Below are positions 10,802 to 42,361 of a stretch of 64,000 nucleotides of DNA, piece after piece. Both the position numbers and the translations under genes were made by a program. The stretch covers positions 49,156-113,155 of the forward strand of contig CAVTWB010000015.1 in assembly GCA_963738245.1 (NCBI GenBank). Direction: 5' to 3'. Under the pieces are notes generated by a model. It had not been told where the DNA came from, did no database searches, and saw only the letters and a program-made list of their open reading frames with translations. The DNA comes from an uncultured Verrucomicrobiae bacterium. GTDB lineage: Bacteria > Verrucomicrobiota > Verrucomicrobiia > Limisphaerales > UBA11358. Every line of letters starts with the position of its first letter. Within the stretch, counting starts at the first letter, position 1.

Positions 10802-11053
10802 CCATCACTTTGCCGCGCAGCAAAGCCATCACGCTTTGGAACAAGGCGACGATGTCGCGCGGCATGATGATTTTGCTCCCAAGCTGAGCGTTTTTAATCC
10901 ACGGCATGACGATGATGTCGGGCGGCAAAACCATTTTGCCCCGCAGCAACATCGCATTACCGCGCGGTCTGATGGTTATGCTCCGGAGGAGGGGAACCAT
11001 GCCGCGAAGCCGGCTGGCGATGTCGCCCGGCTTGACGGGTTTGCCGTGCAGCA
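10802..11053. repeat. Degenerate 21-bp tandem array A (12 units)
   Basis: Units on an exact 21-bp grid, e.g. ccatcactTTGCCGCGCAGCA, aggcgacgATGTCGCGCGGCA, aaaccattTTGCCCCGCAGCA, tgacgggtTTGCCGTGCAGCA; ~8 variable nt plus ~13 semi-conserved nt. Confidence 0.85.
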
Positions 11054-11202
11054 AAATTACTTTTTAATACAAGTCCAGCTTCAATCGTTCCCAAAAGGCA
11101 TCTGACGAGGGTTTTTGGACTGAAACATGCGGCAATTCCGGCAGGTAACAATGCCGTTTTTATGCGGTTGTGGTCAACCGCGGCGGTTGCAGGAGAAAAA
11201 TT

Positions 11203-11817
11203 ATGAGTGTTCAACGTGTCAGTTTGAAATTCCGGCGCAAATCGGACGACGATTTGTTTACCTTTGGCAAGGCGATCATCACCGGCTTGACCAATAATCC
11301 CGCCTTTCCAGATCCACCGGTTTCCATGGCTGAATTGACGGCTTTGAACGAGGCTTTCGGACAGGCCAACAGCGATGTTTTGCTCGGCGGGAAGGTGGCC
11401 ACTGCCCGTAAAATCAAGGCCAGGCAGGCTTTGCTGGTGGCCTTGCGCATCCTGGCGCGTTACGTGGAAACCGAGGGTGGCGACGACCCCGCGAAGATGA
11501 TTACCACGAATTTTTCGCTGATGAGCAAGAACCAGACGCCCGCCGAACTGGGCGTGCCGGGAATCCCGACCGTCAAATATGGTCCCACCACGAAGCTGCT
11601 GCTGACTTTCAATGGCGTGCGCAATGCGCGGGGCTATGAGGTTGAAGTGAGTTTGGACGGGATAACCTGGATCTACGCGGTCTTCACCACCCGGACACGC
11701 GGGGTGGTGGTGGGCAATCTCACACCGGGAAAAGTTTACTACTTCCGCGTGCGGGCGATGGGCGGTAAAAACAATCACGGCGCCTGGACCAGCCCGGTCC
11801 AGTGCATGGCGGTGTGA
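11203..11817 (+). CDS. Helical N-domain plus C-terminal fibronectin type III-like protein
   Basis: AGGAG RBS before ATG 11203; C-term GYEVEVS..W...GNLTPGKVYYFRVRAMG...GAWTSPV is an FN3 signature; no signal peptide. Confidence 0.8.
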   Translation: MSVQRVSLKFRRKSDDDLFTFGKAIITGLTNNPAFPDPPVSMAELTALNEAFGQANSDVLLGGKVATARKIKARQALLVALRILARYVETEGGDDPAKMITTNFSLMSKNQTPAELGVPGIPTVKYGPTTKLLLTFNGVRNARGYEVEVSLDGITWIYAVFTTRTRGVVVGNLTPGKVYYFRVRAMGGKNNHGAWTSPVQCMAV

Positions 11818-12053
11818 ACAAAGCCGCTTATGTTACTTGGCTCAAGTTGGTTGGGAATTCTTTTTAACGCATAATTGGAAAAGCGCTGGCTGAGAATTTC
11901 GCCAGTCAATTTATCACCGCTTTACGATTTCCATCGGCGTGTAAATGATTGACAGCAATACAGTAAAAATCGGCAAAAAATGCTTGACATAAATCCCATT
12001 TTATACTACAAATTTAACGTGTCAGTTTAGGCGCATTAAACCAATAATTTCCA

Positions 12054-12752
12054 ATGAAAAAAACAGCAATTCTTCAGCCGATGGACGGCTTAATGCCAAT
12101 AATGGCGTTGGCATTGTTGTTGACATGCCTGAATGCCAGCGCTGCAAGTTTGATTTTGAACTTTGGCCCCACCGATGGATCCTCCATTCAATTCAATGGG
12201 ACCCAAAATACATTTCAATTCAACAATGGCTACAATGGATACCAATGGGATATCACCAGTGAGACCGGCGGAAGCAGCGCCGTGGGTTTGAACGGTTCGG
12301 TTCTAAACGGGCCATTTCATTACGGTCCAATAACTATTTCGGGGTCGGGGATTACCCAGATTCAATCTGCCACGGTTTTGGGTCCACTGGGAACTTTGGA
12401 CATCAATTCCGGGCCGCTTGTCGATCTTACCGGCACAGTCAACTGGATTAATATTGCGACCTATTTTGGTGTTGGTGGACTGAACGCGTATGTAAATGTT
12501 AATTTGAGTAACGTCAGTTATTCAGGATCGAATGCGGATTTGCAGACACTCCAAGCGAATCAGCCTGGTATTTTGGATGTCAGCTTCCAGTTTGCTCCGG
12601 GCGAAACGTTGACCCAGCTTTCAACCGGAACGGGGCCGTATTCGACCTCTTTTTCCGGGAGCGTTACAACGGCCGTTCCGGAACCCACCACTTTGGCAAT
12701 GGCGGGCTTGGGCGGGTTGACATTGTTGTTGTTTCGCCGCCAGCGGAAGTAA
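12054..12752 (+). CDS. PEP-CTERM sorted surface protein
   Basis: Signal peptide; G/S/T/N-rich body; C-term AVPEPTTLAMAGLGGLTLLLFRRQRK. Confidence 0.93.
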   Translation: MKKTAILQPMDGLMPIMALALLLTCLNASAASLILNFGPTDGSSIQFNGTQNTFQFNNGYNGYQWDITSETGGSSAVGLNGSVLNGPFHYGPITISGSGITQIQSATVLGPLGTLDINSGPLVDLTGTVNWINIATYFGVGGLNAYVNVNLSNVSYSGSNADLQTLQANQPGILDVSFQFAPGETLTQLSTGTGPYSTSFSGSVTTAVPEPTTLAMAGLGGLTLLLFRRQRK

Positions 12753-12769
12753 ACGAAGTTCTTTTCAAT

Positions 12770-12802
12770 ACCCCGCGTCGTCTCACTTGGCGCGGGGTTT
12801 TT
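12770..12802 (+). terminator. Rho-independent terminator
   Basis: ACCCCGCGTCG-loop-TGGCGCGGGGT followed by T-tract. Confidence 0.75.
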
Positions 12803-12900
12803 GTTTCAGCAACGTAACTTGAATGTTGCAATTTATTGGTTGAAAGAAATTCGGCGTGAAGAAAGCCTTGATGGCGAGAGAACGGTAAATCGGAACACAA

Positions 12901-14384
12901 ATGAAAACTACCGATCTGAAACATCTCGCATGTGTCCTTGCGCTTGGCCTGACGGTTGTGCCACCCGCGCACAAACCGGCTGGATCAATTTTTATTCCCC
13001 GGCTGGCTTGGGTGCGCTTGCCAACGCCATCGCCGTGGACGGCAGCGGCAATGTTTTCGTCACAGGGAGTGAATATAGCAACAACTTGGGCATTAGTTTC
13101 TACGGCTACGCGACCATCAAATATTCCAATGCGGGAGCGCCTTTATGGACCAACCTCTATACCGGGGTTGACGGCCTTGCCTACGGTTCCGCCATGGCTG
13201 TGGATGGCAGCGGGAATGCAATTGTGACAGGGTATACATATGACGCATCCTTCAAAATAGATTTCGCGACCATTAAATATTCCAATACGGGCGTGCCCTT
13301 GTGGACCAATCTCTATAATGGCGCCGGTCATGCAGAGGCCAGGGCCATTTCTGCGGATGGCAGCGGCAACGTGTTTGTGACAGGGTTTTCTTCGGACGGG
13401 ACAAACGAGAGTTGTGCGACCCTGAAATATTCAAATGCGGGCGTGCCCTTGTGGACCAACCTTTATGCCGGCCCTTACGGTCAATCCAGCATTGGCAAAC
13501 TGAATTCCACCGATGTCAGTGGCAATGTGCTCGTCACGGCTCATTTGACAAACACGAACGGTGTTGGGAGCTACTACGATGCAATCATCAAATATTCGAA
13601 CGCGGGAGCTGCGTTGTGGACCAACTTCTACACCGGTGCCGGCGGCTACGCGCAAATCTCCGGCATCGCGGTGGACACCAACGGCAACGCATTTGTGGCG
13701 GGATTAACTTATAACGGAACAAATATCTATTATTCTGACCCGACAAACTGGTATGTCACGACCATCAAATATTCGAACACGGGCGCGCCCTTATGGACCA
13801 ACCTTTACACTGACGCCAGCGGTGATGCCGGATCAGCCGCCATCGCTGTTGATGCCAACGGCAATGTGCTGATGACGGAACAAACAGCGACGGTCAAGTA
13901 TTCGAATGGGGGCACGCCTATGTGGACAAATTCAAACGGCGGCACGGTTATCGCCGTGGACACGTCTGGCGACGGAATCGTATCGGGACAAACGTATGAC
14001 GGGACAAATTACTTTGCCGCGACCTTGAAGTATTCGAGTGCGGGAACGCCCTTGTGGACCAACCTCTACACCTCGGCTGCAGGATCAGCCGGGCCAACTG
14101 CCATTGCCGTGGATGAGAACGGCAATGCGTTTATCACCGGGGCGGCGTTTGACGGGATACTTAACCAATATTTTACAATCGAGTATCCCGCTGCAACAAT
14201 ACAGCCAGTCATTCTTCAAGGGCAATGGTTAAACCAGCACATGGTGTTGAGTTGGACAAATTTCGGCTTCAACCTGCAATCCGCGCCAGCCATTACCAGC
14301 ACTTTCACCAACGTTCCTGGCGCGACCAGTCCCTACACGAATGCCTCCGCCCTCGCGCAGCAGTTCTTCCGACTAAAGCAATGA
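12901..14384 (+). CDS. Secreted beta-propeller (SBBP-like) repeat protein; frameshift near 12960
   Basis: Repeats IAVDxxGNVFVTG...ATIKYSNxGxPLWTNLY (~7-8 copies); signal peptide MKTTDLKHLACVLALGL in a different frame; C-term QQFFRLK. Confidence 0.82.
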
Positions 14385-14579
14385 ACCCGCAAACACTGCT
14401 CCTTCACTCTGAAAAAAACTAGGTGAAAATATCAAATTACGCGCAGACATCAGTTTCACTGGTTAATACGCACTATGTTTTTTGCACAAACACAATGCAG
14501 CCAACGCATTTCGGCCCCCGATGGGATTCATCTGGAGTGTGACGGTTGGGAAACTTTTGAGATTTGCAAATAATTCAGA

Positions 14580-14608
14580 TTGACTTTTAAGGTTTTATGC
14601 TCTATTTT
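14580..14608 (+). promoter_or_regulatory. Putative sigma70 promoter
   Basis: TTGACT-17 bp-TATTTT upstream of the 14675 CDS. Confidence 0.5.
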
Positions 14609-14674
14609 AGCACTACATTTGTCTCAAAGTGGGACAATTTTGAAGTTGGTCGTATTTTTTAATTATATTGTCGC

Positions 14675-16039
14675 ATGAATACCTGTTTTTTGAGTATTTC
14701 TCGCTGGCGATTACCTCAATTGTATAAAGTTTTATCGTTGACGGCCATTGCTTTGTTCTTCATTCAGTTTTCTTGGGGACAAGATCAGTTGACGTATTCT
14801 TCGGGCCTGCAACCTCAAGAAACTCAATGGATTCCAGGCCCCGGAAAAACAAGTTTGGGTGCTGTTGCAGATCTTCAAATACCGGTCGGGTATCGTTTTA
14901 CGGACGCCGACGGTGCGCGCAGTCTCCTGAAAGGAATGAACAATCCCGTTCCGGCGGGTTTAGTCGGGGTTCTAGCTCCAAATTCTGGTGAATGGTTGGC
15001 TGTCGTTGAATTCAACGAAATTGGCCACGTTGATGATGCCAGTAAAGACGGAATGAATTCCGAAGCCATTTTGAAGGCCATTCAAGACCGGAGCGCAGCA
15101 CAGAACAACGTCACAGCGATTGAAGGTGGCGTGGTAACGGGCTCCGTGGCCTGGGAGAGCCAGCCCGTTTATGATGAAAAGAATCATTCATTGGAGTGGG
15201 CCATCCGGGCGGAAACCCCATCTGGCAAGGTCATCAATCACACTTTGGTGCTGTTGGGACGCCGGGGCGTTTTAGATATAACCGCGATAAAAGCGTTTCA
15301 GGGTTCGTCCAATCTGTTGCCCTTGAAACAACTGATAAAAAACATCAGCTTCAAAAACGGACAGTCCTACGCAGACTTTCAGAAGGGTGATAAAACGACC
15401 GGTGTTAGTCTGGCCAACTTGGTTGTGGACGACGAGCATCCTGCGGCGAGTGAGGCTGGCCAGAATTTAACTGTCCGCACCGCTTCGGATCCGTTCGCGT
15501 GGATTTATTCTTTCTATTATCTTTTGGGGGGAGGCGTCGTGGTGCTCTTGGTTCTGCTTTCTATAATGAAACTTTCGAAACGAAAGAAAAATAGAAGAAT
15601 TCATCATGGCGAGCAATCATTGGCTGCCACGTCGGGATTATCAACAAACGGCAATGGATTGAACGGGGTGAAGCTAAATGGTTCAAACGGTCACATTGTT
15701 CGTCGAAAAAGGGCGTCGAACTTTGGGAAATTTTACACCAGCATGATACTTGAGCTGTCCTCAAATGAATGCAATTGGCCTTTGGTGCAAAATGGGAATT
15801 CGGGCGCGCACACGGCAAAGATGCCTTCTCCATTAAATGGATCCGAATTGGATCCGGCCATTGTCAATGCCAATTTGCAATTAATCACCATTCAGAAGAA
15901 TTTGATTGAGGAGCAGAGGCGTTTCATGCAGCAGCAATCCAAGCTCATTGACGAAAAAAGCCAGTTGATTGAAGAGCAAAGCCGGCTGCTTGAACGACAA
16001 TCCGATGTGATCGAAAATCAATTCTCCCTGAAACTCTAA
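14675..16039 (+). CDS. DUF2167-domain membrane protein with C-terminal coiled coil
   Basis: Signal peptide; GP..LGAVADLQIPVGYRF, GHVDD, YDEKNHSLEWA, LGRRGVL, YADF..GDK; TM ~aa 275-298; Q/E-rich heptads at the end. Confidence 0.75.
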   Translation: MNTCFLSISRWRLPQLYKVLSLTAIALFFIQFSWGQDQLTYSSGLQPQETQWIPGPGKTSLGAVADLQIPVGYRFTDADGARSLLKGMNNPVPAGLVGVLAPNSGEWLAVVEFNEIGHVDDASKDGMNSEAILKAIQDRSAAQNNVTAIEGGVVTGSVAWESQPVYDEKNHSLEWAIRAETPSGKVINHTLVLLGRRGVLDITAIKAFQGSSNLLPLKQLIKNISFKNGQSYADFQKGDKTTGVSLANLVVDDEHPAASEAGQNLTVRTASDPFAWIYSFYYLLGGGVVVLLVLLSIMKLSKRKKNRRIHHGEQSLAATSGLSTNGNGLNGVKLNGSNGHIVRRKRASNFGKFYTSMILELSSNECNWPLVQNGNSGAHTAKMPSPLNGSELDPAIVNANLQLITIQKNLIEEQRRFMQQQSKLIDEKSQLIEEQSRLLERQSDVIENQFSLKL

Positions 16040-16096
16040 TGACTGATGGCAGGACCGGCAAGTTGAGTCAAAGGATTGTTGTTATGTCAACAATTT

Positions 16097-16258
16097 ATGG
16101 TTTTAATAGCATATAAAAATGCTGCCGTTTTTATCTTGGTCGGTTATTTTTTGATTCTTACAATTTGCGCATCGCATGGCATTTCATTCACCTTTCCAAA
16201 TACCAATTCCATAACCATCAACGAGAGCGGTAGTCCGCCAACCATATCCTCGCCGTAA
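16097..16258 (+). pseudogene. 5' remnant of a secreted protein gene
   Basis: Hydrophobic signal followed by FTFPNTNSITINESGSPPT, then a stop just before the IS remnant. Confidence 0.35.
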
Positions 16259-16362
16259 ACTTGTCGTTACCGCGTTTATGTCTTGAGTCTGCGGTTGTTA
16301 ATCTTTACAGGTTAGGCGTTGCTGCGCGCGTTCAATTCAATCACTCCTCAATGAAGGATATC

Positions 16363-16756
16363 GTAAGCGTCACGCCAAGCACCTATTGACAGAGCAACGG
16401 CGAGGGCCGTAAGTGTCAAAAATATTATGCTACGACGTTGATGATGCGAGCCGTTGCACCGGCAGTTGCCTTTTATTCCAAGCTTGGGGCATGACATCGG
16501 GGTTTGGCGGTTGGTCATGTGCGGCAAACGGGTGAGGACAGCACGAAGATATTTGATCCCCACCACTTCCGCAAACTTCTGCCCCTGTAAGCCGCTGCGT
16601 TCGAACTCATTGAGCAACTGCTCGCGCCGTGCTGCCGGCGTCTTTGCTCGACCCAGCAAATCCGTTTTCAACCCCTGTTCACCTGCCTTTGTCGTATTTG
16701 TCATACAACCATGCTATTTCCATGACGATGTGAAGAAAACCGAAATTGCCGCGACG
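16363..16756 (-). mobile_element. Internally deleted IS66-family element
   Basis: End GTAAGCGTCACGCCAA and degenerate inverted partner TTGCCGCGACG; ORF joins TnpA-like LKTDLLGRAKTPAARREQLLNEFERSGL..KFAEVVGIKY to TnpC C-term-like YLRAVLTRLPHMTNRQ. Confidence 0.75.
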
Positions 16757-16998: not shown

Positions 16999-18789
<1,791 letters not shown>

Positions 18790-18794
18790 ATGCA

Positions 18795-26966: not shown

Positions 26967-27893
26967 TCACGGCACGACGATCTGCACGGTGTCGCTCGGT
27001 GCGGCCTGGCCGGCGTCGTTGGCGGCGACGACATATATCTTCAACAGCTTGCCGCTGGGCTGGCCGGTCAGCGTGGCGTCGCACTCGGTCACGGTGGTGA
27101 TGTTGACCGGGATGGGGTCCACGCCGTCAATCTGTTTATACACGCGGAAGCGCGTGGCGCGGGACGGATTGCTCCAGTGGATCAGCACCGTGCCCGCCGG
27201 CCCGGCCACCAGCACCAGACCGTCCACCGAATCCGGCAGGTTGGTCGCGCCGGGTTCGTTCAGGCCAAACGCCAGCCACAACGGGTCCGTGGCGTCCAGC
27301 AACTGGCCAAGTTCGTTGATGAGTCCCATCATGCGCTCGCGCAATGTCTCTTCGGCGGCGTCGCGCAGGATCCGCTTTTTGGCGGCGTCCGCGTTGCCGT
27401 CCGCCGCCGCCACGCGCGCGGTGGAAAGCGCGGTGAAGAGCGTGCCGGACAGCACGGCGGTGACGGTGATTTTGGTGGTGCTGACCTCCATGTCGGGGTT
27501 GAGGATAAAAAAGTTCTTGAGCGAGAGCAGCAATGCCTGCCGTTTGGACTGCGTGGCCGGCACGGCGGTGGACAGGTCGGGAAAGCCGGTGGCCGTCCAG
27601 GACTGGTTCCAGCTTTCGCCCAGATTGGCCACCAGCACGCGGCGCGCGGAGCCGATGAAGGCCTTGCCGTTGGAATCGGCCACCGTCACGGCGGTGCTGA
27701 AGCCGGTTTTGGCGCTCGACGCCGTCTTGAAGACGCCTTGCGCGAGGATGGTGGCGTCCAGATCGGCGCGCACGTCCACTTCCAGATTTTGTTTGAGTTC
27801 GATGGCCTCCTCGTGGTTGTGGCAGCCGTCGGCCATGTCTTCGCCGAGGGTGAACAGGTCGTCGAGAGGATCGGGGAGTCTGTTTGAGGCCAT
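26967..27893 (-). CDS. Long helical N-domain plus C-terminal FN3-like protein
   Basis: Host-like GC3; C-term VLIHWS..RATRFRVYK...LTGQPSGKLLKIYVVAANDAGQAAPS is FN3-like; no signal peptide. Confidence 0.8.
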   Translation of the reverse strand: MASNRLPDPLDDLFTLGEDMADGCHNHEEAIELKQNLEVDVRADLDATILAQGVFKTASSAKTGFSTAVTVADSNGKAFIGSARRVLVANLGESWNQSWTATGFPDLSTAVPATQSKRQALLLSLKNFFILNPDMEVSTTKITVTAVLSGTLFTALSTARVAAADGNADAAKKRILRDAAEETLRERMMGLINELGQLLDATDPLWLAFGLNEPGATNLPDSVDGLVLVAGPAGTVLIHWSNPSRATRFRVYKQIDGVDPIPVNITTVTECDATLTGQPSGKLLKIYVVAANDAGQAAPSDTVQIVVP

Positions 27894-27934: not shown

Positions 27935-28475
27935 AAATTGGGCGTGGCTGGTGAAAACGACGGTCGTTTCGTCATGTTTCCGCAGTTTCCAGGTGAAAAT
28001 GATGTTCGCGGCACTTGATTCCCACCGTTTTGGGTCAAAAATTCTGTCGTTTGACCCTGCTCCCGCCGTGGCTGGGCAAAAAAACCGGATTTCCTGCCCT
28101 CCCACGGCCGTGGCAGTGCGATTTGATTGGGCAAAACGGCCAACCACGGCGTGAACAGGGGTTTTGACCGGTCGTTGGACCCTCCCACGGCCATGGCACG
28201 GTGATTTGATTGGACAAAATGGCCGTTCACGGCGTGAACAGGCAATTTGGCCGGTCGTTTGGCCCTCCCACCGCCGTGACCGGGTGGAAAAAGCCAGTTT
28301 TTGGGTGTGCTCCCGCCGTGGATGGGTGAAAAATCCGGATTTTTCACCGTGCCACCGCCGTGGCCGGGTGGCAAAAGCAAACGTTGGGGATGGCCACTGC
28401 GGCGGGCGGGTAAAACAGCCGTCATGCCGGATGGAAATTGGCGTGGCTGTGAAGATGGTTGGTGAAACGTCGGGA
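27935..28475. repeat. Degenerate 41-42-bp tandem array B (~13 units)
   Basis: CCGCCGTGG-like core recurs with its CGTG at 27943, 28026, 28067, 28109, 28150, 28192, 28233, 28275, 28317, 28359, ~28401, 28442; 83-bp duplication 28101-28183/28184-28266. Confidence 0.85.
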
Positions 28476-31956: not shown

Positions 31957-32031
31957 ATTTACGATTTGCGATTCGCGATTTACGATTGGATTTGCAGTCG
32001 GCGCGTAAATCGTAAATCGTAAATCGTAAAT
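31957..32031. repeat. Inverted heptamer tandem repeats (ATTTACG)n...(CGTAAAT)4
   Basis: Seen directly; the last unit overlaps the ATG of the TerC gene. Confidence 0.85.
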
Positions 32032-33016
32032 GAATCCGATTCCAATCACACCGTGGCACTGGGCGGGATTCATTCTTTGCATCCTTTTTTTCCTTGCGCT
32101 GGACCTGGGACTGTTTCATCGCGGACCGCGCGTTGTCAAATTTGCGGAAGCCCTCGCGTGGAGCATCCTCTGGTTCGCGCTCGCCATGCTGTTCGCCGGC
32201 GCCCTGGCGTGTGCGCGCGGACACGAGGCGGCGGCGCAATTCACCGCCGGCTATCTCATCGAGCTGTCGCTTTCCCTCGACAACCTCATGGTGATCGCGC
32301 TCATTTTTTCCGCCTTCCGCGTGCCGGCGCAATTCCAGCATCGCGTCTTGTTTTGGGGCATCCTCGGCGCGCTCGTGATGCGCGGTGCGATGATCGCCGC
32401 CGGCGTGGCGCTCATTCGCGAATTTGACTGGGTGCTGTATGTGTTCGGCGTGTTCCTCGTTTTCACCGGCATCAAAATGCTTTTTGCCGGCGAGCAAACG
32501 GTCGAGCCGGAGAAAAACATCGTGCTGCGGTTCGTGAAAAAATTGTTTCCCGTCGCGCCGCAATTTGAAGGCGAAAAATTCTTCTCGCGGCTGAACCATC
32601 GTTTCGCGCTCACGCCGCTCGCGCTCGTGCTGGTGCTCGTCGAGACGACCGATCTGGTTTTCGCGGTGGATTCCGTGCCGGCGGTTTTTTCCATCACCAA
32701 GAACGCGTTCATCGTTTTCACCTCGAACGTCTTCGCCATTCTCGGCCTGCGCTCGATGTATTTCCTGCTGGCGGGCGCGCTCGGCTCATTCCGCTACCTG
32801 AAGATCGGCCTGTCCGTCGTGCTGGTTTTCGTCGGCGTGAAAATGCTGATTGATCCGCACGGCCAGCCCGAGAAATGGTTCCAGCTTGAAATTCCCACGA
32901 ACGTCTCGCTGATGGTCGTCGCGGCGGTCGTTTTGATTGCCATCGTCTTGTCCACGATGGTCGCCGAACGCGAAAAACGCACCGGGCAGTCCGGGCCAAA
33001 CCGCAACTCGAAATGA
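32030..33016 (+). CDS. TerC/Alx family membrane protein
   Basis: YLIELSLSLDN, QHRVLFWGILGALVMR, ETTDLVFAVDSVPA, SNVFAILGLRSMYF. Confidence 0.93.
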   Translation: MNPIPITPWHWAGFILCILFFLALDLGLFHRGPRVVKFAEALAWSILWFALAMLFAGALACARGHEAAAQFTAGYLIELSLSLDNLMVIALIFSAFRVPAQFQHRVLFWGILGALVMRGAMIAAGVALIREFDWVLYVFGVFLVFTGIKMLFAGEQTVEPEKNIVLRFVKKLFPVAPQFEGEKFFSRLNHRFALTPLALVLVLVETTDLVFAVDSVPAVFSITKNAFIVFTSNVFAILGLRSMYFLLAGALGSFRYLKIGLSVVLVFVGVKMLIDPHGQPEKWFQLEIPTNVSLMVVAAVVLIAIVLSTMVAEREKRTGQSGPNRNSK

Positions 33017-34755
33017 AATTCCGCTGGACGCTTGCGCCGCCGCAACCGCTGCTGGCCGGTCCGCTCGCCGCGGCGCTCAAAATTTCGCCGCTGCTCGCGC
33101 AATGCCTCCTCAACCGCGGCTTCAGCGAACCGCAAGTCATCGAAAATTTTCTCCAGCCGCGATTGAAAAATCTTGCCGACCCTTTTCTGCTGCCGAACAT
33201 GGCCGCCGCCGTCGAACGATTGCTCCGCGCCCGCGAACAAAACGAGCCGCTCGTCATTTTTGGCGATTACGACGTGGACGGCGTGACTTCCACCGCGCTG
33301 CTCACCGAGGTTTTGCGCGCGCTCGGCTGGCAGGTGGAATTTTATCTGCCGAACCGGATGGACGAGGGCTATGGCTTGAGCGCCGACGGTGTGGAAAACT
33401 GCCTGAACAAATTTCCGGTCAAATTGCTGCTCGCCGTGGATTGCGGTTCAACTGCGGTTGAAACAATTGCCTCGCTTCGCGTTCGCGGCATTGACGTGAT
33501 TGTTTTGGATCACCATCAAGTTTCGTCGCCCGCGCCAAATGCAGTTGCCTTGGTCAATCCACAGCTTGTCTTTACGCCGGAAATCGGAAATCGGAAATCG
33601 GAAATCGGAAATTTTCAGGAGCTTTGTTCCGCCGGCATCGCCTTCAAGCTCGCGCACGCGCTGGTGAAACGCGGACGCGAAATAAATTTGCCCGGCGCAG
33701 CGGATTTTGATTTGCGCCCGCTGCTGGATCTGGTCGCGCTCGGCACGATTGCGGATCTGGTTCCGCTCACCGGCGAAAACCGGATTCTGGCCACCGCCGG
33801 ACTTGAAAAACTGAACACAACCAAACGCGCCGGAATTCTTGCGTTGAAACAGGTCGCGCAATCGCCGGAAAAACTGGGCACGCACGACGTCGGCTTCCAG
33901 CTTGCGCCGCGCTTGAACGCCGCCGGCCGTCTGGAAACGGCGGAAGAATCACTATATTTGCTACTGGCTAAAAATTTCGAAGAAGCGCTGCCGCTGGCGC
34001 AAAATCTGGATTTGAGGAATCGCGAGCGGCAGAAAATTGAAAAGACGATTGTCGAGGAAGTCACGGGCGTGGTGCGCTCAAAGTTCGACGCGCAGAAAGA
34101 TTTTGTCATCGTCGAGGGCCAATTGCTCTGGCACATCGGCGTGGTCGGCATCGTGGCGTCGCGCGTGTTGTCGGAATTTTACCGGCCGACCATCATTATC
34201 GGCGGCGAAAACGGCCAGATGCGCGGTTCGGGCCGCAGCATCGCCGGCTTCGACCTGGCCGGTGCGTTGGGTGAATGCGACGACTTGCTCGTGCGTCACG
34301 GTGGTCACGCAATGGCGGCGGGCTTGAGCATTTTGCCGGAGAAAATTGATCTGCTGCGGCAGCGGTTGAATGAACTGGCGCGGCGCAAACTCAAGCCGGA
34401 AGATTTGCTGCCGCCGCTGCGCCTGGACGCGGAAGTCGAATTGGACGAAATCAATTTTGAGTCGCTCGCCGAACTGGAGAAATTGAAACCGACGGGGCAG
34501 GGAAATCCCGGCGTGCAGTTCTGCGCCCGAAATTTGTTGCACGCAAAACCGATTCAACGCATGGGCGCGAACAAGCAGCACGTCAAACTTTGGGTGAAGG
34601 ATCAAAACGGAACCGCGCTCGAGGCGGTCTGGTGGAACGGCGGCAACAAATCGCTGCCGGTCGGCCAGTTCGATCTGGCGTTCGCACCAAGCATCAATGA
34701 ATTTAACGGCCGGCGCACGGTGCAGTTGAAGGTTTTGGACTGGGCGCCCGCTTGA
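33013..34755 (+). CDS. recJ: ssDNA exonuclease RecJ
   Basis: GDYDVDG, VDCG, LDHH, GTIAD, PRLNAAGR, GSGRS, GGHAMAAG. Confidence 0.97.
   Translation: MKFRWTLAPPQPLLAGPLAAALKISPLLAQCLLNRGFSEPQVIENFLQPRLKNLADPFLLPNMAAAVERLLRAREQNEPLVIFGDYDVDGVTSTALLTEVLRALGWQVEFYLPNRMDEGYGLSADGVENCLNKFPVKLLLAVDCGSTAVETIASLRVRGIDVIVLDHHQVSSPAPNAVALVNPQLVFTPEIGNRKSEIGNFQELCSAGIAFKLAHALVKRGREINLPGAADFDLRPLLDLVALGTIADLVPLTGENRILATAGLEKLNTTKRAGILALKQVAQSPEKLGTHDVGFQLAPRLNAAGRLETAEESLYLLLAKNFEEALPLAQNLDLRNRERQKIEKTIVEEVTGVVRSKFDAQKDFVIVEGQLLWHIGVVGIVASRVLSEFYRPTIIIGGENGQMRGSGRSIAGFDLAGALGECDDLLVRHGGHAMAAGLSILPEKIDLLRQRLNELARRKLKPEDLLPPLRLDAEVELDEINFESLAELEKLKPTGQGNPGVQFCARNLLHAKPIQRMGANKQHVKLWVKDQNGTALEAVWWNGGNKSLPVGQFDLAFAPSINEFNGRRTVQLKVLDWAPA
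33578..33612 (+). repeat. (CGGAAAT)5 heptamer tract inside recJ
   Basis: Five perfect copies encoding PEIGNRKSEIGN between VNP and ELCSAG. Confidence 0.9.
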
Positions 34756-37757: not shown

Positions 37758-37812
37758 AATTCGCTAAACAGTTAAATCGTTCAATCGGTTTCGCAATTAA
37801 ACAATTCAACGA

Positions 37813-38835
37813 ATGACGATTTTAGCAATTGAAACTTCCTGCGACGAAACCAGCGCGGCGGTGATTTGTGACGGCGCGGTTTTGTCGGGCATCGTTTCCT
37901 CGCAAATTAAATTGCACGCGGAATACGGCGGCGTCGTGCCGGAACTCGCCGCGCGAGAACACCTGCGAAATTTAATTCCCGTTGTGCAGTCGGCATTGAG
38001 TGCAGCGGGAATTTCGGTCGGGCAACTGGACGCCGTCGCCGCCACGCAAGGGCCGGGTTTGCCGAACGCGCTGCTCGTCGGCTTCAAGGCGGCGGAGGCA
38101 GTTGCCTTTGCGCTGAACAAACCTTTCATCGGCATCAATCATCACGAGGCGCATTTATATTCGCCGTGGATTTCCGGCACGCCGCCCGTCGCCGACTTTT
38201 CAAAATTCCAGCCGAACGTCTCGCTCATCGTCAGCGGCGGACACACGATGCTGGTGCTGGTGGAATCGGAATTGAAACACCGCGTGCTCGGCGGGACGAT
38301 TGACGACGCCGCCGGCGAATGTTTTGACAAGACCGGCAAGCTCATGGGCCTGCCGTATCCCGCCGGGCCGCTGATTGACCAACTGGCGGAGCAGGGGAAC
38401 CCCGCCGCCCACGATTTTCCCCGTCCGCTGCTGCACGACGCCAGCGACGACTTCAGTTTCAGCGGCCTGAAGACTTCCGTCCGCTATTTCATCCGCGACC
38501 ATCCGTTGCTCGATGACCGGCAGGCCATTTGCGACCTCTGTGCCAGCGTGCAGGCGGCCATTGTCGAAGTGCTCGTGAAGAAAACCATCCGCGCCGCGAA
38601 TCGTAATGGCGTCCGCTGCGTAACCGCGTCCGGCGGCGTGACCTGCAACCGCTCGTTGCGCAATGAACTCGCCCGCGCCTGTCAAAAAAACGGCCTTGCC
38701 CTCCGTCTCGCCGACAAATCCCTCTGCACGGACAACGCCGCGATGATCGGAATTCTGGCCGAAAGAAAATTACTCGCCAACATGCCGCTGCCGCCGCTCG
38801 ACGAGGAAATCAAACCCGGCTGGGTTCTGGCCTGA
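37813..38835 (+). CDS. tsaD: tRNA N6-adenosine threonylcarbamoyltransferase
   Basis: IETSCDET, GGVVPELAAREH, HHEAH, VSGGHT, FSFSGLKT, CTDNAAMI. Confidence 0.97.
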   Translation: MTILAIETSCDETSAAVICDGAVLSGIVSSQIKLHAEYGGVVPELAAREHLRNLIPVVQSALSAAGISVGQLDAVAATQGPGLPNALLVGFKAAEAVAFALNKPFIGINHHEAHLYSPWISGTPPVADFSKFQPNVSLIVSGGHTMLVLVESELKHRVLGGTIDDAAGECFDKTGKLMGLPYPAGPLIDQLAEQGNPAAHDFPRPLLHDASDDFSFSGLKTSVRYFIRDHPLLDDRQAICDLCASVQAAIVEVLVKKTIRAANRNGVRCVTASGGVTCNRSLRNELARACQKNGLALRLADKSLCTDNAAMIGILAERKLLANMPLPPLDEEIKPGWVLA

Positions 38836-38837
38836 AA

Positions 38838-39383
38838 TCACTTCGCCGCCAGCGCGGCTTCAATGGCGGCAGTGACTTCCGGCGAGTCGGGCTTGGTTTT
38901 CGAGTCGAACCGTTTCAGGATCGTGCCGTCTTTGCCGATGAGGAACTTGGTGAAGTTCCAGCCGATGTTGCCGGGGTAGGGGGAGGTGTCCCCCGCAAGC
39001 TGCACATAGAGCGGATGCCGGCCCTCGCCGTTCACTTCGATCTTGTCGAACATCGGGAAGGTGACGGCGAACTTGCTGGTGCAAAATTGTTTGATCTCCG
39101 CGTCGCTGCCCGGCTCCTGCCCGCCGAACTGGTTGCACGGGAAGCCGAGGATCACAAAGCCCTGGTCGCTGTATTTCTTGTAGGTCGCCTCGAGCGCCGT
39201 GTATTGCGGCGTGAACCCGCAGCGCGAGGCGACGTTCACGATGAGCAGCACCTTGCCCTTGTAGGCGCCCAGCGTGGTCGGCTTGCCGTCAATGTCCTTC
39301 ACCGGGATGTCGTAAATGGACGCGGCACGGACGGCGAGGTTTGTAATAAGCGAAAGGGCTAAGGCCAGCGCAAAGGTTTTCAT
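38838..39383 (-). CDS. Glutathione peroxidase (Cys type, signal peptide)
   Basis: NVASRCGFTPQY, GFPCNQFGGQEPG, WNFTKFL. Confidence 0.95.
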   Translation of the reverse strand: MKTFALALALSLITNLAVRAASIYDIPVKDIDGKPTTLGAYKGKVLLIVNVASRCGFTPQYTALEATYKKYSDQGFVILGFPCNQFGGQEPGSDAEIKQFCTSKFAVTFPMFDKIEVNGEGRHPLYVQLAGDTSPYPGNIGWNFTKFLIGKDGTILKRFDSKTKPDSPEVTAAIEAALAAK

Positions 39384-39476
39384 GCGCGTAAAAATAACCC
39401 GAACCCTCGTCTTGTCAAATGGTCAGCCGTTGTGGCGGAATTCGGCCTGAATACCTTAACCACCGCCGGGATGCCG

Positions 39477-41183
39477 CTATGATTTGCCCGGCTCGCCGAG
39501 CAGCACGCTGGGGCCGTGGTAATCCGGGGCCGCATAGAATGGCGGAAAATTGGCCGTCGCCACCGCCACCGAGGGCTTCTTCGGATCCAAAATCGCAACG
39601 CCAAAGCTGCAATTCGGCGGACACACATGCTCGGCCACCACCACGAGATCCTGTTCCAGCTCCGACCCGGTTTCGCCCGTGATCAGCAGCCCGATGATGT
39701 AGCTGGTCTCACCGGATTTTGGCGGGGGCGACTGGCGGAACAGCCAAGCCGCCCGCGCGAGCGGCTTGCCTCGCAGAAATTCAAACAGCGGCTGGATGAA
39801 ATCCGTCGGGTAATCCGCCGCGTCCACGATCTCCGACGGGCGCCGCACCTTTTCCACCGGGGGCAGCAGCTTGAAGACGGAGCCGTCCCACAATTCGCGC
39901 ACCCGGTCCTGGTTCAGCACCATCCCGCCCGGCACGCAGCCGGGATTGATCACCACCTTGTAATCATGGGTGTGCCCGGTCAGGCAATGGAACAGCTCCA
40001 GCCCTTTCATTTCGACGACCGTATGCGGCATGGCCCACCGCTTGGTGACTTTAAGCGCCTGCTCCGCCCGCTCCAGCGAGGTGAAAATTGGAATGTGGTC
40101 TTCCTGCCCGTTGGTCCAGACATCGAAAAGCATCCGGTCGCCGTTCCCCACCTTCATCATGCCCACCATCTCCGGATGGTAGGGTGCCAGAAATACCAAA
40201 ACAGATTCCCTCAACTGCCGGAACAGCTCCCGGCTGGCCGGCGTCCATTTGGCCGCAGCGAAGTAGGCCCGTTCCAAATCATTGACCGGTTCCCATTCGC
40301 TGCCTTCGGGTGCGTCGGCCTCCGGCGCGGGTTCGGCGTCGGCATCGACGGGTGGTCCCGGCGTCACGTTGCATCGGACAAAGCCCGGCGCGGCATAAAA
40401 CTCCGGATATTCGCCCATGATGTCGATCAGCGCGGCATCGGTCGGATCCATGATCCAAAGGCGGCAGCGTTGCGGCGGCTGAAATGTTTCGTTGGCGACC
40501 CGCTCGATCTCCGTTTCCAGTTCCTTGGTGAAACTTTTCGTCACCAGCAGCCCCAGAACATAATCCGCATCGTCCGTGTCATATTCCGGCTCGTTCGGAT
40601 CGGGTTTTGCCTGGTCGCGGAACAGCCAGGCGGCGCGCACTTCGGGATGGGCCGCCAGCAGGGGCGGCATGGCCTTGACCAGTTCCGGGGGGAAATGCAT
40701 GGAACCGAACATGATCAGCTTGCCCAACGCAATTGCACCTGGAGTGGGCGGCACGATGATGGAGCCATCGGCCAGACCCTCCAGGTGTTCCTCCTTTAAT
40801 TCGAGCGCGCCCGAGCTGCACGCGGGATTGACGATGACGTTGAGCTTGTTTTTTTGCTGCGCCAACGACTCAAACAACACCTTGCCGTCAACTTGCTGAT
40901 ATTCCAGCTCCTCGCGCTTCTGCCGGAGCGTCTTGATCGCCTCGTTTGCGCGTGCGGCGCAGGAAAACACCGGGATGAACTGCCTGCCCCCGTTGTTCCA
41001 GGTGGTCAATGTGAGGTGGTTTTCATCGTCGGATTTCAGGCGCGGCACCAGCTCCTTCGGACGCGGCTTCAAGATCGTCAATTTGGACTTCAGCAGTTGT
41101 TTGAAGAAGGGGATGTTCTCCTCCCCGTGTCCCGTGGCGCGGGCGATGGCCCGCTCCAGATCATTTTGAGGTGCCGAGGTCAT
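39477..41183 (-). CDS. Tandemly duplicated SseB/SseB_C-like protein
   Basis: Two repeats of NDLERA...IPV/IFS/T..RA...VINPxC...AAWLFR...YV/ILGLL...FYAAP; start at MTSAPQNDLERA. Confidence 0.7.
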   Translation of the reverse strand: MTSAPQNDLERAIARATGHGEENIPFFKQLLKSKLTILKPRPKELVPRLKSDDENHLTLTTWNNGGRQFIPVFSCAARANEAIKTLRQKREELEYQQVDGKVLFESLAQQKNKLNVIVNPACSSGALELKEEHLEGLADGSIIVPPTPGAIALGKLIMFGSMHFPPELVKAMPPLLAAHPEVRAAWLFRDQAKPDPNEPEYDTDDADYVLGLLVTKSFTKELETEIERVANETFQPPQRCRLWIMDPTDAALIDIMGEYPEFYAAPGFVRCNVTPGPPVDADAEPAPEADAPEGSEWEPVNDLERAYFAAAKWTPASRELFRQLRESVLVFLAPYHPEMVGMMKVGNGDRMLFDVWTNGQEDHIPIFTSLERAEQALKVTKRWAMPHTVVEMKGLELFHCLTGHTHDYKVVINPGCVPGGMVLNQDRVRELWDGSVFKLLPPVEKVRRPSEIVDAADYPTDFIQPLFEFLRGKPLARAAWLFRQSPPPKSGETSYIIGLLITGETGSELEQDLVVVAEHVCPPNCSFGVAILDPKKPSVAVATANFPPFYAAPDYHGPSVLLGEPGKS

Positions 41184-41188
41184 GGGTT

Positions 41189-41905
41189 CTACGGCGTTTT
41201 GGCCGGGGTCGCCGTCGGGGCGGGCGCGGGTGGCGGTGTGCTGGTGGAAGGCGTGTAGGTGGTGGGAACGGTGCTGCGGATCATGTCGCCTTCCGCCGTG
41301 CCGACGGGGAAAATCCGCGTGGCGTCCGCATACCACGCCACGTTCACGGCTTCGAGGCCGCTGCACATTTGATCGAGCTTGGCGGACTGCTCGTGGCTGG
41401 CCGAATCCGCGTTGGTGAACGTCGTCTGCAAATCCTCCGCGCACTGTTTGCGGAGCGTTTTCAACGCCGCCAGCGTGTTGGCCGGGGTGGGGCTCCACGT
41501 GGGGGCCAGTTGGTTCCACGCCGATTCCCAGGCCAGCGCTTCGGTGAGGATTTTCTCGGTGGTCTTGCCGGTGGCGCGGAGGCCGGCCAGCACCGCGAGG
41601 CTGGCGGGGTCGTTGCGGAATTTGTTTTTCGCCATGTTCAGCCCCTGCACCGTGAACTGGTGCAAGGCGTTCAACTGCGCCCGCCAGGTGCCGTAAGCGC
41701 CGTCGCGAGTGCGATGGGCCTGGTCGGCGATTTCCTCCTGTCCGACCACCGGCGGGGTGCTGCTGCTGTTGCCGGTGATGGTTTCCAACTGCGTTTGCAT
41801 CTGGTCGGGGGTCGCATCCGGCCACGACCACTTGGTGTCCACCTGTCGCGCCGCACTGATGGTCTTTATGGCGCGGTCAACGCTGAACTGGTTGTCCGTT
41901 TTCAT
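41189..41905 (-). CDS. Hypothetical helical protein with Pro/Thr-rich tail
   Basis: AAAGGA RBS; host-like codon usage; 5 bp upstream of the SseB-like gene. Confidence 0.8.
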   Translation of the reverse strand: MKTDNQFSVDRAIKTISAARQVDTKWSWPDATPDQMQTQLETITGNSSSTPPVVGQEEIADQAHRTRDGAYGTWRAQLNALHQFTVQGLNMAKNKFRNDPASLAVLAGLRATGKTTEKILTEALAWESAWNQLAPTWSPTPANTLAALKTLRKQCAEDLQTTFTNADSASHEQSAKLDQMCSGLEAVNVAWYADATRIFPVGTAEGDMIRSTVPTTYTPSTSTPPPAPAPTATPAKTP

Positions 41906-41949
41906 GATTTTCCTTTGGTTGCTGCGCTGGTTTATCCGCAGCCACTACC

Positions 41950-42035
41950 TCTTTACTTCAAAGGGCGCGTCCAGTCAATAGTTAAATTTAATAAATAACA
42001 GATAAAACATATATAAACTAATAATAATCATAATG
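41950..42035 (-). promoter_or_regulatory. AT-rich UP-like tract and putative promoter
   Basis: ~60 bp almost pure A/T, then TTGACT-17 bp-TAAAGA on the minus strand. Confidence 0.45.
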
Positions 42036-42109
42036 GAAGTGAATGCGGGCGCATCGCCGCCGCAACTGGTGGGCATGGGCAACCGCAAAAAGCGCGTGCG
42101 GATGGGAAG

Positions 42110-42361
42110 AATCGGCAAACGGCGATGGCCGGAACACGAACAGCCGGATTCCCAATACGAACAGCCGCGCCGCCAATACAAACGGTCGTAACCGGAACCC
42201 AAACGGCGCGGCCCGGAATACGAACGGGGCAGGGCGGAACACCAACGGCGCTGGCCGGAATACGAACGGATAGACCTGGAATACAAACGGAGTAGGGCGA
42301 AATACAAACGGCGGCAGCCGGAATAGGAACAGACCCGCCGGGAACACAAGCCGTCGCCGCC
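42110..42361. repeat. Degenerate 21-bp tandem array C (12 units)
   Basis: Core GGAAYACRAACRG at 42131, 42152, 42173, 42194, 42215, 42236, 42257, 42278, 42299, 42320, 42341, each followed by 8 variable nt. Confidence 0.92.

What the first reader, a model, noticed from the sequence alone, without database searches (positions are those of the whole stretch)
10802..42361. Recurrent module: helically phased ~12-unit degenerate array directly upstream of a cytoplasmic helical (+/- FN3) protein, three times in 32 kb
Seen: three loci share one architecture with unrelated sequences. Array A (12x21 bp) precedes gene 11203-11817, array B (~13x41-42 bp) precedes gene 27893-26967, and array C (12x21 bp) precedes gene 41905-41189. 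Each array is 5' of its gene, has about 12 units, keeps a strict period while its sequence diverges, and alternates conserved and variable segments. Known: 21 and 42 bp are 2 and 4 turns of B-DNA. The proteins lack signal peptides although FN3 domains are normally extracellular, and their N-termini look like amphipathic helix bundles. Inference: this may be an undescribed array-plus-protein system. The protein could polymerise on or wrap its cognate phased DNA, or the array could be transcribed into repeat/spacer RNAs bound by the protein. Each locus lies in an accessory region, suggesting the module moves as a unit.
Basis: partly seen in the sequence, partly recalled or inferred. Interest (0 to 1): 0.88.

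Follow-up and report, generated by a model that had tools for sequence, protein, structure and literature searches.

The report
Phased 21-bp arrays heading small genes
This soil bacterium carries over a hundred non-coding arrays of 21-base units, many sitting directly in front of small genes of unknown function, a pairing that recurs in distant relatives and matches no described system.

Summary
The three arrays are real and lie directly 5' of the three genes. They are not a local curiosity. The 3.44-Mb genome holds 117 regions with a 21/41/42-bp period, median length 345 bp. Units have a conserved core of about 11-12 bp, often an inverted repeat, and a free spacer of about 9-10 bp.

Six small-protein families account for 69 ORF pieces, and 50 of these have an array within 900 bp upstream. 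Random placement gives 2.45. Proteins A and B belong to one family: a three-helix N-domain of unknown fold plus FN3. Protein C is unrelated to them.

In other genomes, including another class, 20 of 28 family loci have an upstream 21n-bp array. The single C homologue found also has one. Two congeners without the family show 0 arrays in 340 kb.

My best reading is that the arrays are DNA-level, helically phased multi-site protein-binding platforms belonging to single-gene accessory modules. The binder is unknown. The module's own protein is the leading but unproven candidate. Coding, phased A-tract curvature and a general RNA-structure role are not supported.

Its binding and polymerisation mechanism remains untested.

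The parts
10802..11054 (.). Array A: 12 units of 21 bp. Each has a 12-bp core TGYC-N4-GRCA (imperfect palindrome) and a 9-bp variable spacer.
   Evidence: Autocorrelation. Stacked units. The same core class occurs in the arrays of the two nearest paralogues.
11055..11202 (+). 148-bp interval between array A and the start codon. It begins with an A/T-rich stretch and holds only a weak -24/-12-like string, TGGACTGAAACATGC, at 11116-11130.
   Evidence: Read. The string has 4 mismatches to TGGCAC-N5-TTGCW and is not among the hits with 2 or fewer mismatches. It is a candidate only.
11203..11817 (+). Gene A, 204 aa: a three-helix N-domain (residues 1-110) plus a C-terminal FN3 domain. It belongs to a family with about 29-35 copies in this genome.
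26967..27893 (-). Gene B, 308 aa: a longer helical N-region plus FN3. It is a distant member of the same family as A, with two paralogues in the genome, one of which has a 41-bp-period array 18 bp upstream.
27940..28452 (.). Array B: about 11 units of 41-42 bp with an 83-84-bp super-period. Units contain CACGGCGG-type cores and short hairpin-forming palindromes. The array ends about 47 bp before gene B's ATG and lies in the divergent gap to yajC-secDF.
41189..41905 (-).
   Evidence: One homologue (48% identity) was found in 40 relatives searched.
42069..42399 (.). Array C: about 12 units of 21 bp with the core CCGTTYGTATTCCGG on the gene's strand. About 215 bp, including a very A/T-rich stretch, separates it from gene C's ATG.
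39477..41183 (-). SseB-family gene (568 aa) that starts 5 nt after gene C's stop codon. It is probably co-transcribed with C.
   Evidence: PF07179 E 7.5e-16, PF14581 E 1.5e-6.

Best explanation
The three arrays belong to a genome-wide class of non-coding, helically phased DNA arrays. The unit is 21 bp, two turns of B-DNA, and there are typically 8-20 units. Each unit has a conserved core of about 11-12 bp, often an inverted repeat, and a freely drifting spacer.

An array together with the single small gene downstream forms a 1-2 kb accessory module. The module duplicates within a genome and is patchily distributed among genomes.

I read the array as a DNA-level, multi-site binding platform. 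A sequence-specific protein, probably dimeric, occupies every second helical turn on one face of the DNA and builds a cooperative nucleoprotein complex of 200-500 bp just upstream of the module gene's promoter. That complex controls the gene. Arrays elsewhere that carry the same core could be occupied by the same binder.

Shown:
- the arrays and their unit grammar;
- their linkage to six small-gene families;
- conservation of the linkage across genomes;
- concordance of core and protein clade among close paralogues.

Inferred:
- that the cores are protein-binding sites;
- that the binder is the module's own product (my estimate 0.3; otherwise a host regulator);
- that the outcome is regulation of the downstream gene.
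For: 1. There are 117 arrays with a 21-bp base spacing (period 21: 59; 42: 49; 41: 8; 20: 1), median length 345 bp. 90 of the 117 are at most 50% covered by any ORF called by my crude gene caller.

2. Linkage: 50 of 69 ORF pieces from six families have an array between -150 and 900 bp upstream. Random placement gives a mean of 2.45 and a maximum of 7 in 200 trials. The median gap is 106 bp. In every clustered case the array is on the 5' side.

3. Conservation across genomes:
- 11 of 18 family-A loci from 12 other genomes of the order have an upstream array.
- 9 of 10 loci from two genomes found in a draw of 300 across the phylum have one; one of those genomes is of another class with 39% GC.
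- A cluster-4 gene in G012 has one.
- The only C homologue found has one.

4. Genome-level co-occurrence: 0 arrays in 179 kb plus 161 kb of two congeners that lack the family, against 3.4 per 100 kb here.

5. Selection on cores: the paralogue genes behind a99 and a111 are 79.5% identical at the DNA level. Their arrays are almost unalignable, yet both keep TGYC-N4-GRCA, as does window array A at about 35% protein identity.

6. Sister genes share cores in 5 clades. Seven paralogues in G172 have array cores that differ from one another, 4 of them clear inverted repeats.

7. Inverted-repeat arms of 4 bp or more occur in 55 of 82 consensus units, against 35.1 in shuffles.

8. A DNA-level role is favoured over an RNA one. 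13 of the 23 family-A arrays have a match of at least 17/20 to the sigma54 -24/-12 consensus between array and ATG. Outward hits number 41, against 23.5 expected and 16 inward.

9. The genome has rpoN and 9 bEBPs.

10. There is no strand skew relative to the gene: mean GC skew is -0.02 and mean AT skew is -0.02.
Against: - 72 of the 117 arrays have none of the six families downstream. They sit beside assorted genes or in convergent gaps (18 of 115 by crude calls, no fewer than the genome average). A purely promoter-linked role is therefore not general.
- Arrays about 90% identical occur at loci whose flanks are unrelated: a0/a76, a41/a88 and a55/a78. Arrays can therefore spread or persist without the gene.
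- The N-domain of family A is confidently modelled (pLDDT 93.9) but resembles no DNA-binding fold. The best Foldseek E is 1.4 and the best PDB profile E is 0.32.
- In the window itself I found no sigma70-consensus site near B or C and no sigma54 match with 2 or fewer mismatches in front of A, B or C.
- Concordance of core and protein can be explained by descent of the whole module.
- One possible discordance exists: the a83 core resembles the a103 core although the proteins lie in different clades.
- No expression data bear on the arrays.
Confidence: 0.55

Rival explanations
1. The arrays are oversized upstream activating sequences (enhancers) for sigma54 promoters. Host NtrC-type enhancer-binding proteins, not the module protein, bind the palindromic cores, oligomerise, and activate the downstream single-gene operon by DNA looping.
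For: - 13 of 23 family-A arrays are followed by a strong -24/-12 match, often after an A/T-rich stretch, at the distance typical of enhancer / bend / promoter layouts.
- rpoN and 9 bEBPs are present, and all 9 carry an HTH_8 DNA-binding domain.
- One bEBP gene (C13, about 82.3-84.1 kb) ends about 400 bp from array a87.
- PEP-CTERM genes are a published precedent for single-gene operons with long sigma54 upstream regions (PMC1569441, passages read).
Against: - Cores are very diverse. No 5-mer recurs in more than 9 of 108 arrays, and family A alone has at least 12 core classes by my reading. Nine bEBPs cannot obviously cover this.
- Solo arrays show no excess of sigma54 matches: about 14 of 72 have a hit, against about 13 expected. 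This is my own count.
- Clusters 1, 3, 4, B and C show no evident -24/-12 site.
- bEBP genes are not significantly close to arrays: 3 of 9 lie within 2 kb, against about 1.4 expected.
Confidence: 0.2
2. The arrays are selfish or neutral minisatellite-like repeats, comparable to REP/BIME clusters. They arise by in-register slippage or unequal exchange, spread by recombination, and merely accumulate in the permissive intergenic DNA of accessory islands where orphan small genes also accumulate.
For: - Some arrays are near-perfect, with identity 0.92-1.0 between units, which implies recent expansion.
- Arrays are shared between loci without shared flanks.
- The ends of the triplicated unit are ragged.
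- Many arrays are solo and some lie in convergent gaps.
Against: - A single strict 21-bp step across more than 100 arrays with unrelated sequences needs a common ruler.
- Cores are kept while spacers decay.
- The array is always 5' of the family gene. 50 of 69 family ORF pieces have one, against 2.45 expected.
- The pairing survives across classes and across 39% versus 57% GC.
- Array-free intergenic DNA is plentiful: 532 gaps were sampled.
Confidence: 0.15
3. The arrays are transcribed and act as RNA. They would be either repeat/spacer transcripts processed into unit RNAs bound by the adjacent protein, or multi-hairpin sponge RNAs.
For: - Array B folds better than shuffles (z -4.87, 0 of 100 shuffles as stable). 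Array A does so weakly (z -2.56).
- Palindromic cores could form hairpins.
Against: - Array C has no excess structure (z +1.66).
- Where a promoter can be recognised, it lies downstream of the array.
- There is no strand asymmetry relative to the gene.
- 9-bp 'spacers' are too short for guide function.
- Rfam gives only a tRNA in the window.
Confidence: 0.06
4. The arrays encode proteins with 7-residue repeats, since 21 bp equals 7 codons.
For: - Open frames run through arrays A (minus strand, 118 aa, LLRGKxV-like heptads), B (200 aa) and C (three frames open).
- One 21-bp periodic signal in the window, 15848-16049, really is a coding coiled coil.
Against: - The strand of the open frame is inconsistent relative to the gene (A opposite, B and C same).
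- Other arrays have stops in all frames; no ORF spans the array in L007.
- The coding scores of these ORFs are at the caller's floor (8-17, against 40-300 for real genes).
- None of the three ORFs matches Pfam.
- 41-bp periods occur in 8 arrays.
Confidence: 0.03

Closest known systems
Iterons with their Rep gene (theta-replicating plasmids such as pPS10, R6K, F, P1). Recalled from general knowledge; not tested by a call.
   Same: Direct repeats of about 17-22 bp are spaced at about 21-22 bp, so that all sites face one side of the helix. They lie immediately upstream of the gene for the protein that binds them. Repeat and protein co-diverge into incompatible pairs.
   Different: There are over 100 arrays per chromosome rather than one per replicon. 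The proteins match no winged-helix Rep family. Arrays here are longer (8-20 units). No replication module lies beside them.
Partition centromeres parC/ParR, tubC/TubR, and omega-protein heptad arrays. Recalled; not tested by a call.
   Same: Tandem short repeats upstream of the operon are bound cooperatively by a small dimeric adaptor. The result is a continuous nucleoprotein filament that also autoregulates the promoter.
   Different: No partner NTPase gene (ParM, ParA or TubZ) is present, and the neighbours are not conserved at all. No RHH or wHTH fold is detected in families A, B or C. There are dozens of copies on one chromosome.
Sigma54 enhancers and PEP-CTERM-type single-gene operons (Haft et al. 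2006, PMC1569441; passages read).
   Same: Single-gene operons are preceded by unusually long non-coding regions that end in a -24/-12 promoter about 70 nt before the start codon. A sequence-specific upstream site is present.
   Different: The published motif is a single shared site bound by one regulator (PrsR). Here there are 8-20 phased sites per gene, and the core sequence differs from module to module. The genes are cytoplasmic-looking helical/FN3 proteins, not PEP-CTERM proteins.
REP/BIME clusters with RAYT genes. Recalled; not tested by a call.
   Same: Short palindrome-containing units are clustered in intergenic DNA. Some clusters flank a cognate gene and further copies are dispersed.
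   Different: REPs of one class share one sequence genome-wide and lack a strict helical period. Here the period is fixed and the sequence varies. I did not look for a HUH transposase.

Membership tests
Fibronectin type III domain (PF00041) | Sequence match at or above Pfam's gathering score | tested here: not met
   A scores 22.3 bits and B 17.9 bits, against a cut-off of 25. C has no match.
Fibronectin type III domain (PF00041) | Seven-strand beta-sandwich fold superposable on solved FN3 domains | tested here: met
   The AF2 model of A has pLDDT 85.7. Residues about 120-204 match FN3 structures with Foldseek E 1.8e-6, probability 1.0 and TM (target) 0.73. The family profile also hits multi-FN3 proteins massively.
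Iteron/Rep replication origin | Direct repeats at a pitch of about 21-22 bp directly upstream of the gene | tested here: met
Iteron/Rep replication origin | Adjacent gene encodes a winged-helix Rep initiator | tested here: not met
   No Pfam, NCBIfam or PDB match of that kind was found.
Iteron/Rep replication origin | One, or a few, per replicon | tested here: not met
   117 arrays in 3.44 Mb.
Type II/III partition locus (parC-parMR, tubC-tubRZ) | Centromere-like repeat array upstream of the operon | tested here: met
Type II/III partition locus (parC-parMR, tubC-tubRZ) | Adjacent filament-forming NTPase gene | tested here: not met
   The 35 family genes have no conserved neighbour. Most are followed by unrelated or convergent genes.
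Sigma54 enhancer-dependent promoter | A -24 GG / -12 GC promoter between the upstream sites and the gene | tested here: inconclusive
   Met for 13 of 23 family-A arrays at a score of at least 17/20. Not met at 2 or fewer mismatches in front of window genes A, B or C.
Sigma54 enhancer-dependent promoter | rpoN and DNA-binding bEBPs are present in the genome | tested here: met
   One rpoN and 9 Sigma54_activat genes, all with HTH_8.
Sigma54 enhancer-dependent promoter | A cognate bEBP binds the upstream sites | not testable with these tools
   Needs DAP-seq, ChIP or EMSA.
CRISPR array | Near-identical repeats of 23-55 bp separated by unique spacers of similar length | tested here: not met
   The conserved core is 11-12 bp and the spacer 9-10 bp, giving a 21-bp period. 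Separate arrays with a 68-69-bp period exist elsewhere in the genome.
REP/BIME-RAYT | One palindromic unit sequence shared by all copies of a class genome-wide | tested here: not met
   No 5-mer recurs in more than 9 of 108 arrays. Core classes hold 2-6 arrays each.

The most novel reading that the evidence does not exclude
Each module is an orthogonal protein-DNA pair. The small helical protein, with or without FN3, uses a previously unrecognised DNA-binding N-domain to read the core of its own array and polymerises along it at one dimer per two helical turns. FN3 or helical contacts bridge neighbouring dimers, building a 200-500-bp nucleoprotein filament. Dozens of mutually non-cross-reacting pairs coexist in one chromosome, diversify like incompatibility groups, spread as 1-2 kb selfish units, and seed solo arrays. 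This would be a new class of chromosomal array-plus-binder element.
Probability: 0.25. Interest if true: 0.9.

Novelty: new variant of a known kind. Interest (0 to 1): 0.8.

Why it matters
If the arrays are protein-binding platforms, this genome holds over a hundred natural, sequence-diverse, strictly phased multi-operator arrays. Many are paired with a small gene of unknown fold, and the pairing is conserved from a 57%-GC lineage to a 39%-GC lineage of the phylum.

That would reveal one of two things. It could be a new family of sequence-specific DNA binders with a built-in set of orthogonal protein/operator pairs, useful for synthetic biology and for understanding how specificity diversifies. 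Or it could be an unusual enhancer architecture for sigma54 and other promoters in a poorly studied soil phylum.

It also shows that the feature is systematic and easy to detect: a simple lag-21 autocorrelation scan found the arrays, whereas TRF missed array A. The hypothesis is therefore directly testable by DAP-seq or EMSA with a handful of proteins.

In the held library, four searches and passages from two papers turned up no description of such arrays. Subscription journals and supplements were not searchable.

Tried and rejected
- Phased A-tract curvature: only 8% of arrays have at least 0.6 tracts per unit in phase. Rejected as a general property.

- A universal core motif or single host factor: none found.

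- Consistent strand skew relative to the gene: none.

- Fold or sequence relatives of the N-domain: none in PDB.

- Family libraries: NCBIfam, PHROGs and PADLOC gave nothing beyond FN3-type tail-fibre hits. The ESM Atlas gave only 'hypothetical protein' clusters.

- The search of protein representatives with the full-length profile was swamped by giant multi-FN3 proteins and told me nothing about the N-domain.

- The search for homologous proteins found 8 proteins, none with a functional name.

- Homodimer prediction of protein A returned no verdict (score 0.00). I do not use it either way.

- Public reads: RNA contigs from two runs cover only 12044-12340, in the PEP-CTERM gene. No RNA contig lies on array A or gene A. 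These are contigs with small shares, so absence means nothing. DNA contigs of two runs hold near-identical pieces, including part of array A.

- Sigma70-consensus scan near B and C: 0 sites.

- N-terminal hypervariability among the seven G172 paralogues: the first 60 columns are slightly less conserved (0.40-0.44) than columns 60-120 (0.51-0.59). The FN3 middle is lower still (0.35). This is not diagnostic.

- Proximity of bEBP genes to arrays is not significant.

- My gene calls come from a crude in-house codon-score caller. Counts that depend on it (intergenic fraction, neighbour orientation) are approximate.

- Arrays dropped before the counts: 13 were removed as duplicates, poly-A, or lying inside solid ORFs, and a further 22 had fewer than 5 anchored units. 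That left 82 of 117.

Full report
OBSERVATION

Identity between positions 21, 42 and 63 bp apart is 0.45, 0.47 and 0.53 for A (10802-11054). It is 0.61, 0.61 and 0.64 for C (42120-42361). For B (27950-28400) it is 0.48 at lag 42 and 0.50 at lag 83. The mean over all lags is about 0.25-0.29.

TRF reports B and C but misses A. Stacking the sequence in register shows 12 units in A, about 12 in C and about 11 units of 42 bp in B.

Each array lies on the 5' side of its gene. A is 148 bp before the ATG at 11203. B ends about 47 bp before the ATG at 27893. C lies about 215 bp before the ATG at 41905.

THE ARRAYS ARE A GENOME-WIDE CLASS

The window is contig C15:49156-113155 of an 18-contig, 3.44-Mb assembly that is 83.6% complete. 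An autocorrelation scan found 158 periodic regions. A refined scan restricted to lags 20-22 and 41-43 found 117 arrays of at least 180 bp: 59 with period 21, 49 with period 42, 8 with period 41 and 1 with period 20. The median length is 345 bp, or 3.4 arrays per 100 kb.

Anchoring on the most recurrent 12-mer shows that 21 bp is the basic spacing, even in most '42-bp' arrays, which alternate two spacer types.

By my crude gene caller, 90 of the 117 arrays are at most 50% covered by any called ORF. Of the 27 others, about 16 overlap only ORFs with floor-level coding scores, which are simply frames left open by the repeat. About 10 may be true coding repeats. One such false positive is in the window: 15848-16049 is the coiled-coil tail of a DUF2167 protein.

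UNIT GRAMMAR

Units combine a conserved core with a variable spacer. Examples are TGYC-N4-GRCA plus 9 nt in array A, and CCGTTYGTATTCCGG plus 6 nt in array C.

Cores differ from array to array. No 5-mer recurs in more than 9 of 108 non-redundant arrays. Small core classes of 2-6 arrays do exist.

Consensus units contain an inverted repeat with arms of 4 bp or more in 55 of 82 arrays, against 35.1 expected from shuffles. Some arrays are near-perfect, others much decayed.

LINKAGE TO SMALL GENES

Clustering the proteins that flank arrays gave one large family of 22 entries, including window gene A. In all 22 the array is upstream.

Profile iteration within the genome united A and B into one family of 35 members, 23 of which have a detected array within 800 bp upstream. 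Some 'array-less' members have short or weak arrays. The gene in L002, for example, has 5-6 units of the same core class as its sister.

Five further families are also headed by arrays:
- helical plus FN3-like, about 200 aa;
- ArsR-like wHTH, about 100 aa;
- two all-helical families of about 230 aa;
- the B subfamily.

Over the whole genome, 50 of 69 six-frame ORF pieces matching these six families have an array between -150 and 900 bp upstream. Random placement gives a mean of 2.45 and a maximum of 7.

Neighbouring genes are not conserved. Modules sit between housekeeping genes. One lies between purine-biosynthesis-like genes; I judged those by eye. Module B sits beside yajC-secDF.

One module of 1.8-2.0 kb occurs three times at 98.5-99.7% identity with ragged ends.

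Protein C has no paralogue in the genome and is unrelated to A and B.

CONSERVATION ELSEWHERE

A profile of the N-domain alone found 29 matches in this genome and 0-9 in 18 congeners. It also found matches in 4 of 12 other families of the order. In an even draw of 300 genomes across the phylum, only 2 had matches.

Of the 28 foreign loci fetched, 20 have an array with period 21, 41, 42, 63 or 84 bp upstream of the gene. Four of the 8 without have under 330 bp of upstream sequence in their contig. This includes 8 of 9 loci in G172, a genome of another class with 39% GC.

A cluster-4 gene in G012 also has an array directly upstream. So does the only homologue of protein C found among 40 relatives. 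It is 48% identical and has about 5 units with the core GCCGACGT about 230 bp upstream.

Two congeners that lack the family show 0 arrays in 179 kb and 161 kb. At this genome's density, about 11.6 would be expected.

CORE VERSUS PROTEIN

Sister genes share cores. This holds for C4_233421/C14_147974, C14_557134/C12_196287, the C3/C9 trio, C14_413502/C15_153853 and C4_153153/C14_183605.

The a99 and a111 genes are 79.5% identical in DNA. Their arrays give only one weak 104-bp alignment, yet both keep TGYC-N4-GRCA. Window array A keeps it too, at about 35% protein identity.

Seven G172 paralogues have cores that differ from one another. Four are clear inverted repeats: TTTCCGTACGGAAA, GGAGTACTCC, AAAGTTACAGAACTTT and TCTTTATAGAAAGA.

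This fits co-diversifying protein/site pairs. It also fits simple descent of whole modules.

PROMOTERS

In 13 of the 23 family-A arrays there is a match of at least 17/20 to TGGCAC-N5-TTGCW between array and ATG, often after an A/T-rich stretch. Outward hits number 41, against 23.5 expected and 16 inward.

The genome has rpoN and 9 bEBPs, all with HTH_8.

The window's own modules lack strong sigma54 or sigma70 consensus matches. Solo arrays show no excess of sigma54 matches (my own count). Sigma54 dependence is therefore a property of many family-A genes, not of arrays in general.

THE PROTEINS

Protein A models confidently (pLDDT 85.7) as a three-helix N-domain (helices 15-29, 42-61 and 64-92) plus FN3. 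Modelled alone, the N-domain reaches pLDDT 93.9.

Foldseek matches only FN3 for the full-length model. For the N-domain alone the best E is 1.4, and the best PDB profile E is 0.32.

Pfam, NCBIfam, PHROGs and PADLOC add nothing.

WHAT IT IS NOT

- Coding heptads: frame and strand are inconsistent, stops occur in other arrays, 41-bp periods exist, and coding scores are at the floor.
- General RNA structure: fold z-scores are -4.87 for B, -2.56 for A and +1.66 for C. There is no strand skew. Rfam reports only a tRNA in the window.
- A-tract curvature: seen in only 8% of arrays.
- CRISPR: core and spacer are far too short.

INTERPRETATION

The fixed two-turn pitch, the selective retention of short, often palindromic cores, the 5' position and the cross-phylum linkage point to a phased multi-site platform for a sequence-specific DNA-binding protein that belongs functionally to the downstream gene.

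The architecture most resembles iteron/Rep and parC/ParR-type arrays and, for family A, sigma54 enhancers. It fails the defining tests of each (see the membership table).

The identity of the binder is open. I put the module's own product at about 0.3, host bEBPs at about 0.2 and other factors at the remainder. About 0.15 goes to the arrays being selfish or neutral repeats. The many solo arrays, and the arrays shared between unrelated flanks, are the main unexplained facts.

LITERATURE

Four full-text searches returned no paper that appeared, from titles and abstract openings, to describe such arrays. Two papers came from searches, and I read only passages containing my search terms.
- Haft 2006 (PMC1569441) describes single-gene PEP-CTERM operons with long sigma54 upstream regions but no arrays.
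- A 2025 sigma54 regulon survey (PMC12316311) has no occurrence of the words 'tandem' or 'fibronectin'.

The comparisons with iterons, parC, omega and REP are recalled knowledge, not tool results.

Noticed in passing
window 15848-16049: A 21-bp periodic signal picked up by my scan is the coding heptad (coiled-coil) C-terminus of a DUF2167 protein (14675-16039). It is a false positive for the array class and a caution for autocorrelation scans.
   Followed up: yes
window 31957-31995, 32004-32031, 33578-33612: Perfect or near-perfect heptanucleotide repeats: ATTTGCG x5.9, CGTAAAT x4 and CGGAAAT x5. The first two lie in the short gap after secDF and the third inside the ORF 33013-34755. They are possible slippage-prone tracts. 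Note that 7 x 3 = 21.
   Followed up: no
window 12044-12340: RNA contigs from two soil metatranscriptome runs of different studies match the 5' part of the PEP-CTERM gene (12054-12752) without mismatch. The sequence is therefore present in RNA libraries.
   Followed up: partly
G000 C14:538987-540687, C15:179971-180579, C9:232597-232974, C9:326110-326382: These arrays have a 68-69-bp period and look like CRISPR arrays. The one at C9:232597 ends about 35 bp before a family-A gene (C9:232968-233612) that has no 21-bp array.
   Followed up: no
G000 C11:128640-130522, C14:265197-267278, C9:174203-176197: Three copies of one array-plus-gene module, 98.5-99.7% identical, with ragged ends. There is no transposase inside and no obvious terminal repeats.
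   Followed up: partly
G000 C3:~28780 and ~29345; C10:~313955; C12:~195540: A G+C-rich hairpin, CTCTCCCCGG(N)CGGAGAG, recurs next to several arrays of the TCTCGYGRCG class. It may be a separate small repeat element or a terminator.
   Followed up: no
L088 (G172:C8) 17987-18325: In the low-GC genome, a 21-bp array lies about 130 bp upstream of a nucleotidyltransferase/HEPN-like gene pair. I judged the pair by eye from the translations.
   Followed up: no
window 39477-41183: An SseB-family gene starts 5 nt after gene C's stop codon, so module C may be a two-gene operon, unlike the single-gene modules.
   Followed up: partly
G000 C13:81475-81924: Array a87 (core GGAGGTGCCTCC) lies between the 3' end of a bEBP gene and a 442-aa signal-peptide protein gene. 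Arrays a7 and a19 align to it at 83-88%. Arrays a18 and a102 have a similar core by eye. This is a possible bEBP regulon.
   Followed up: no
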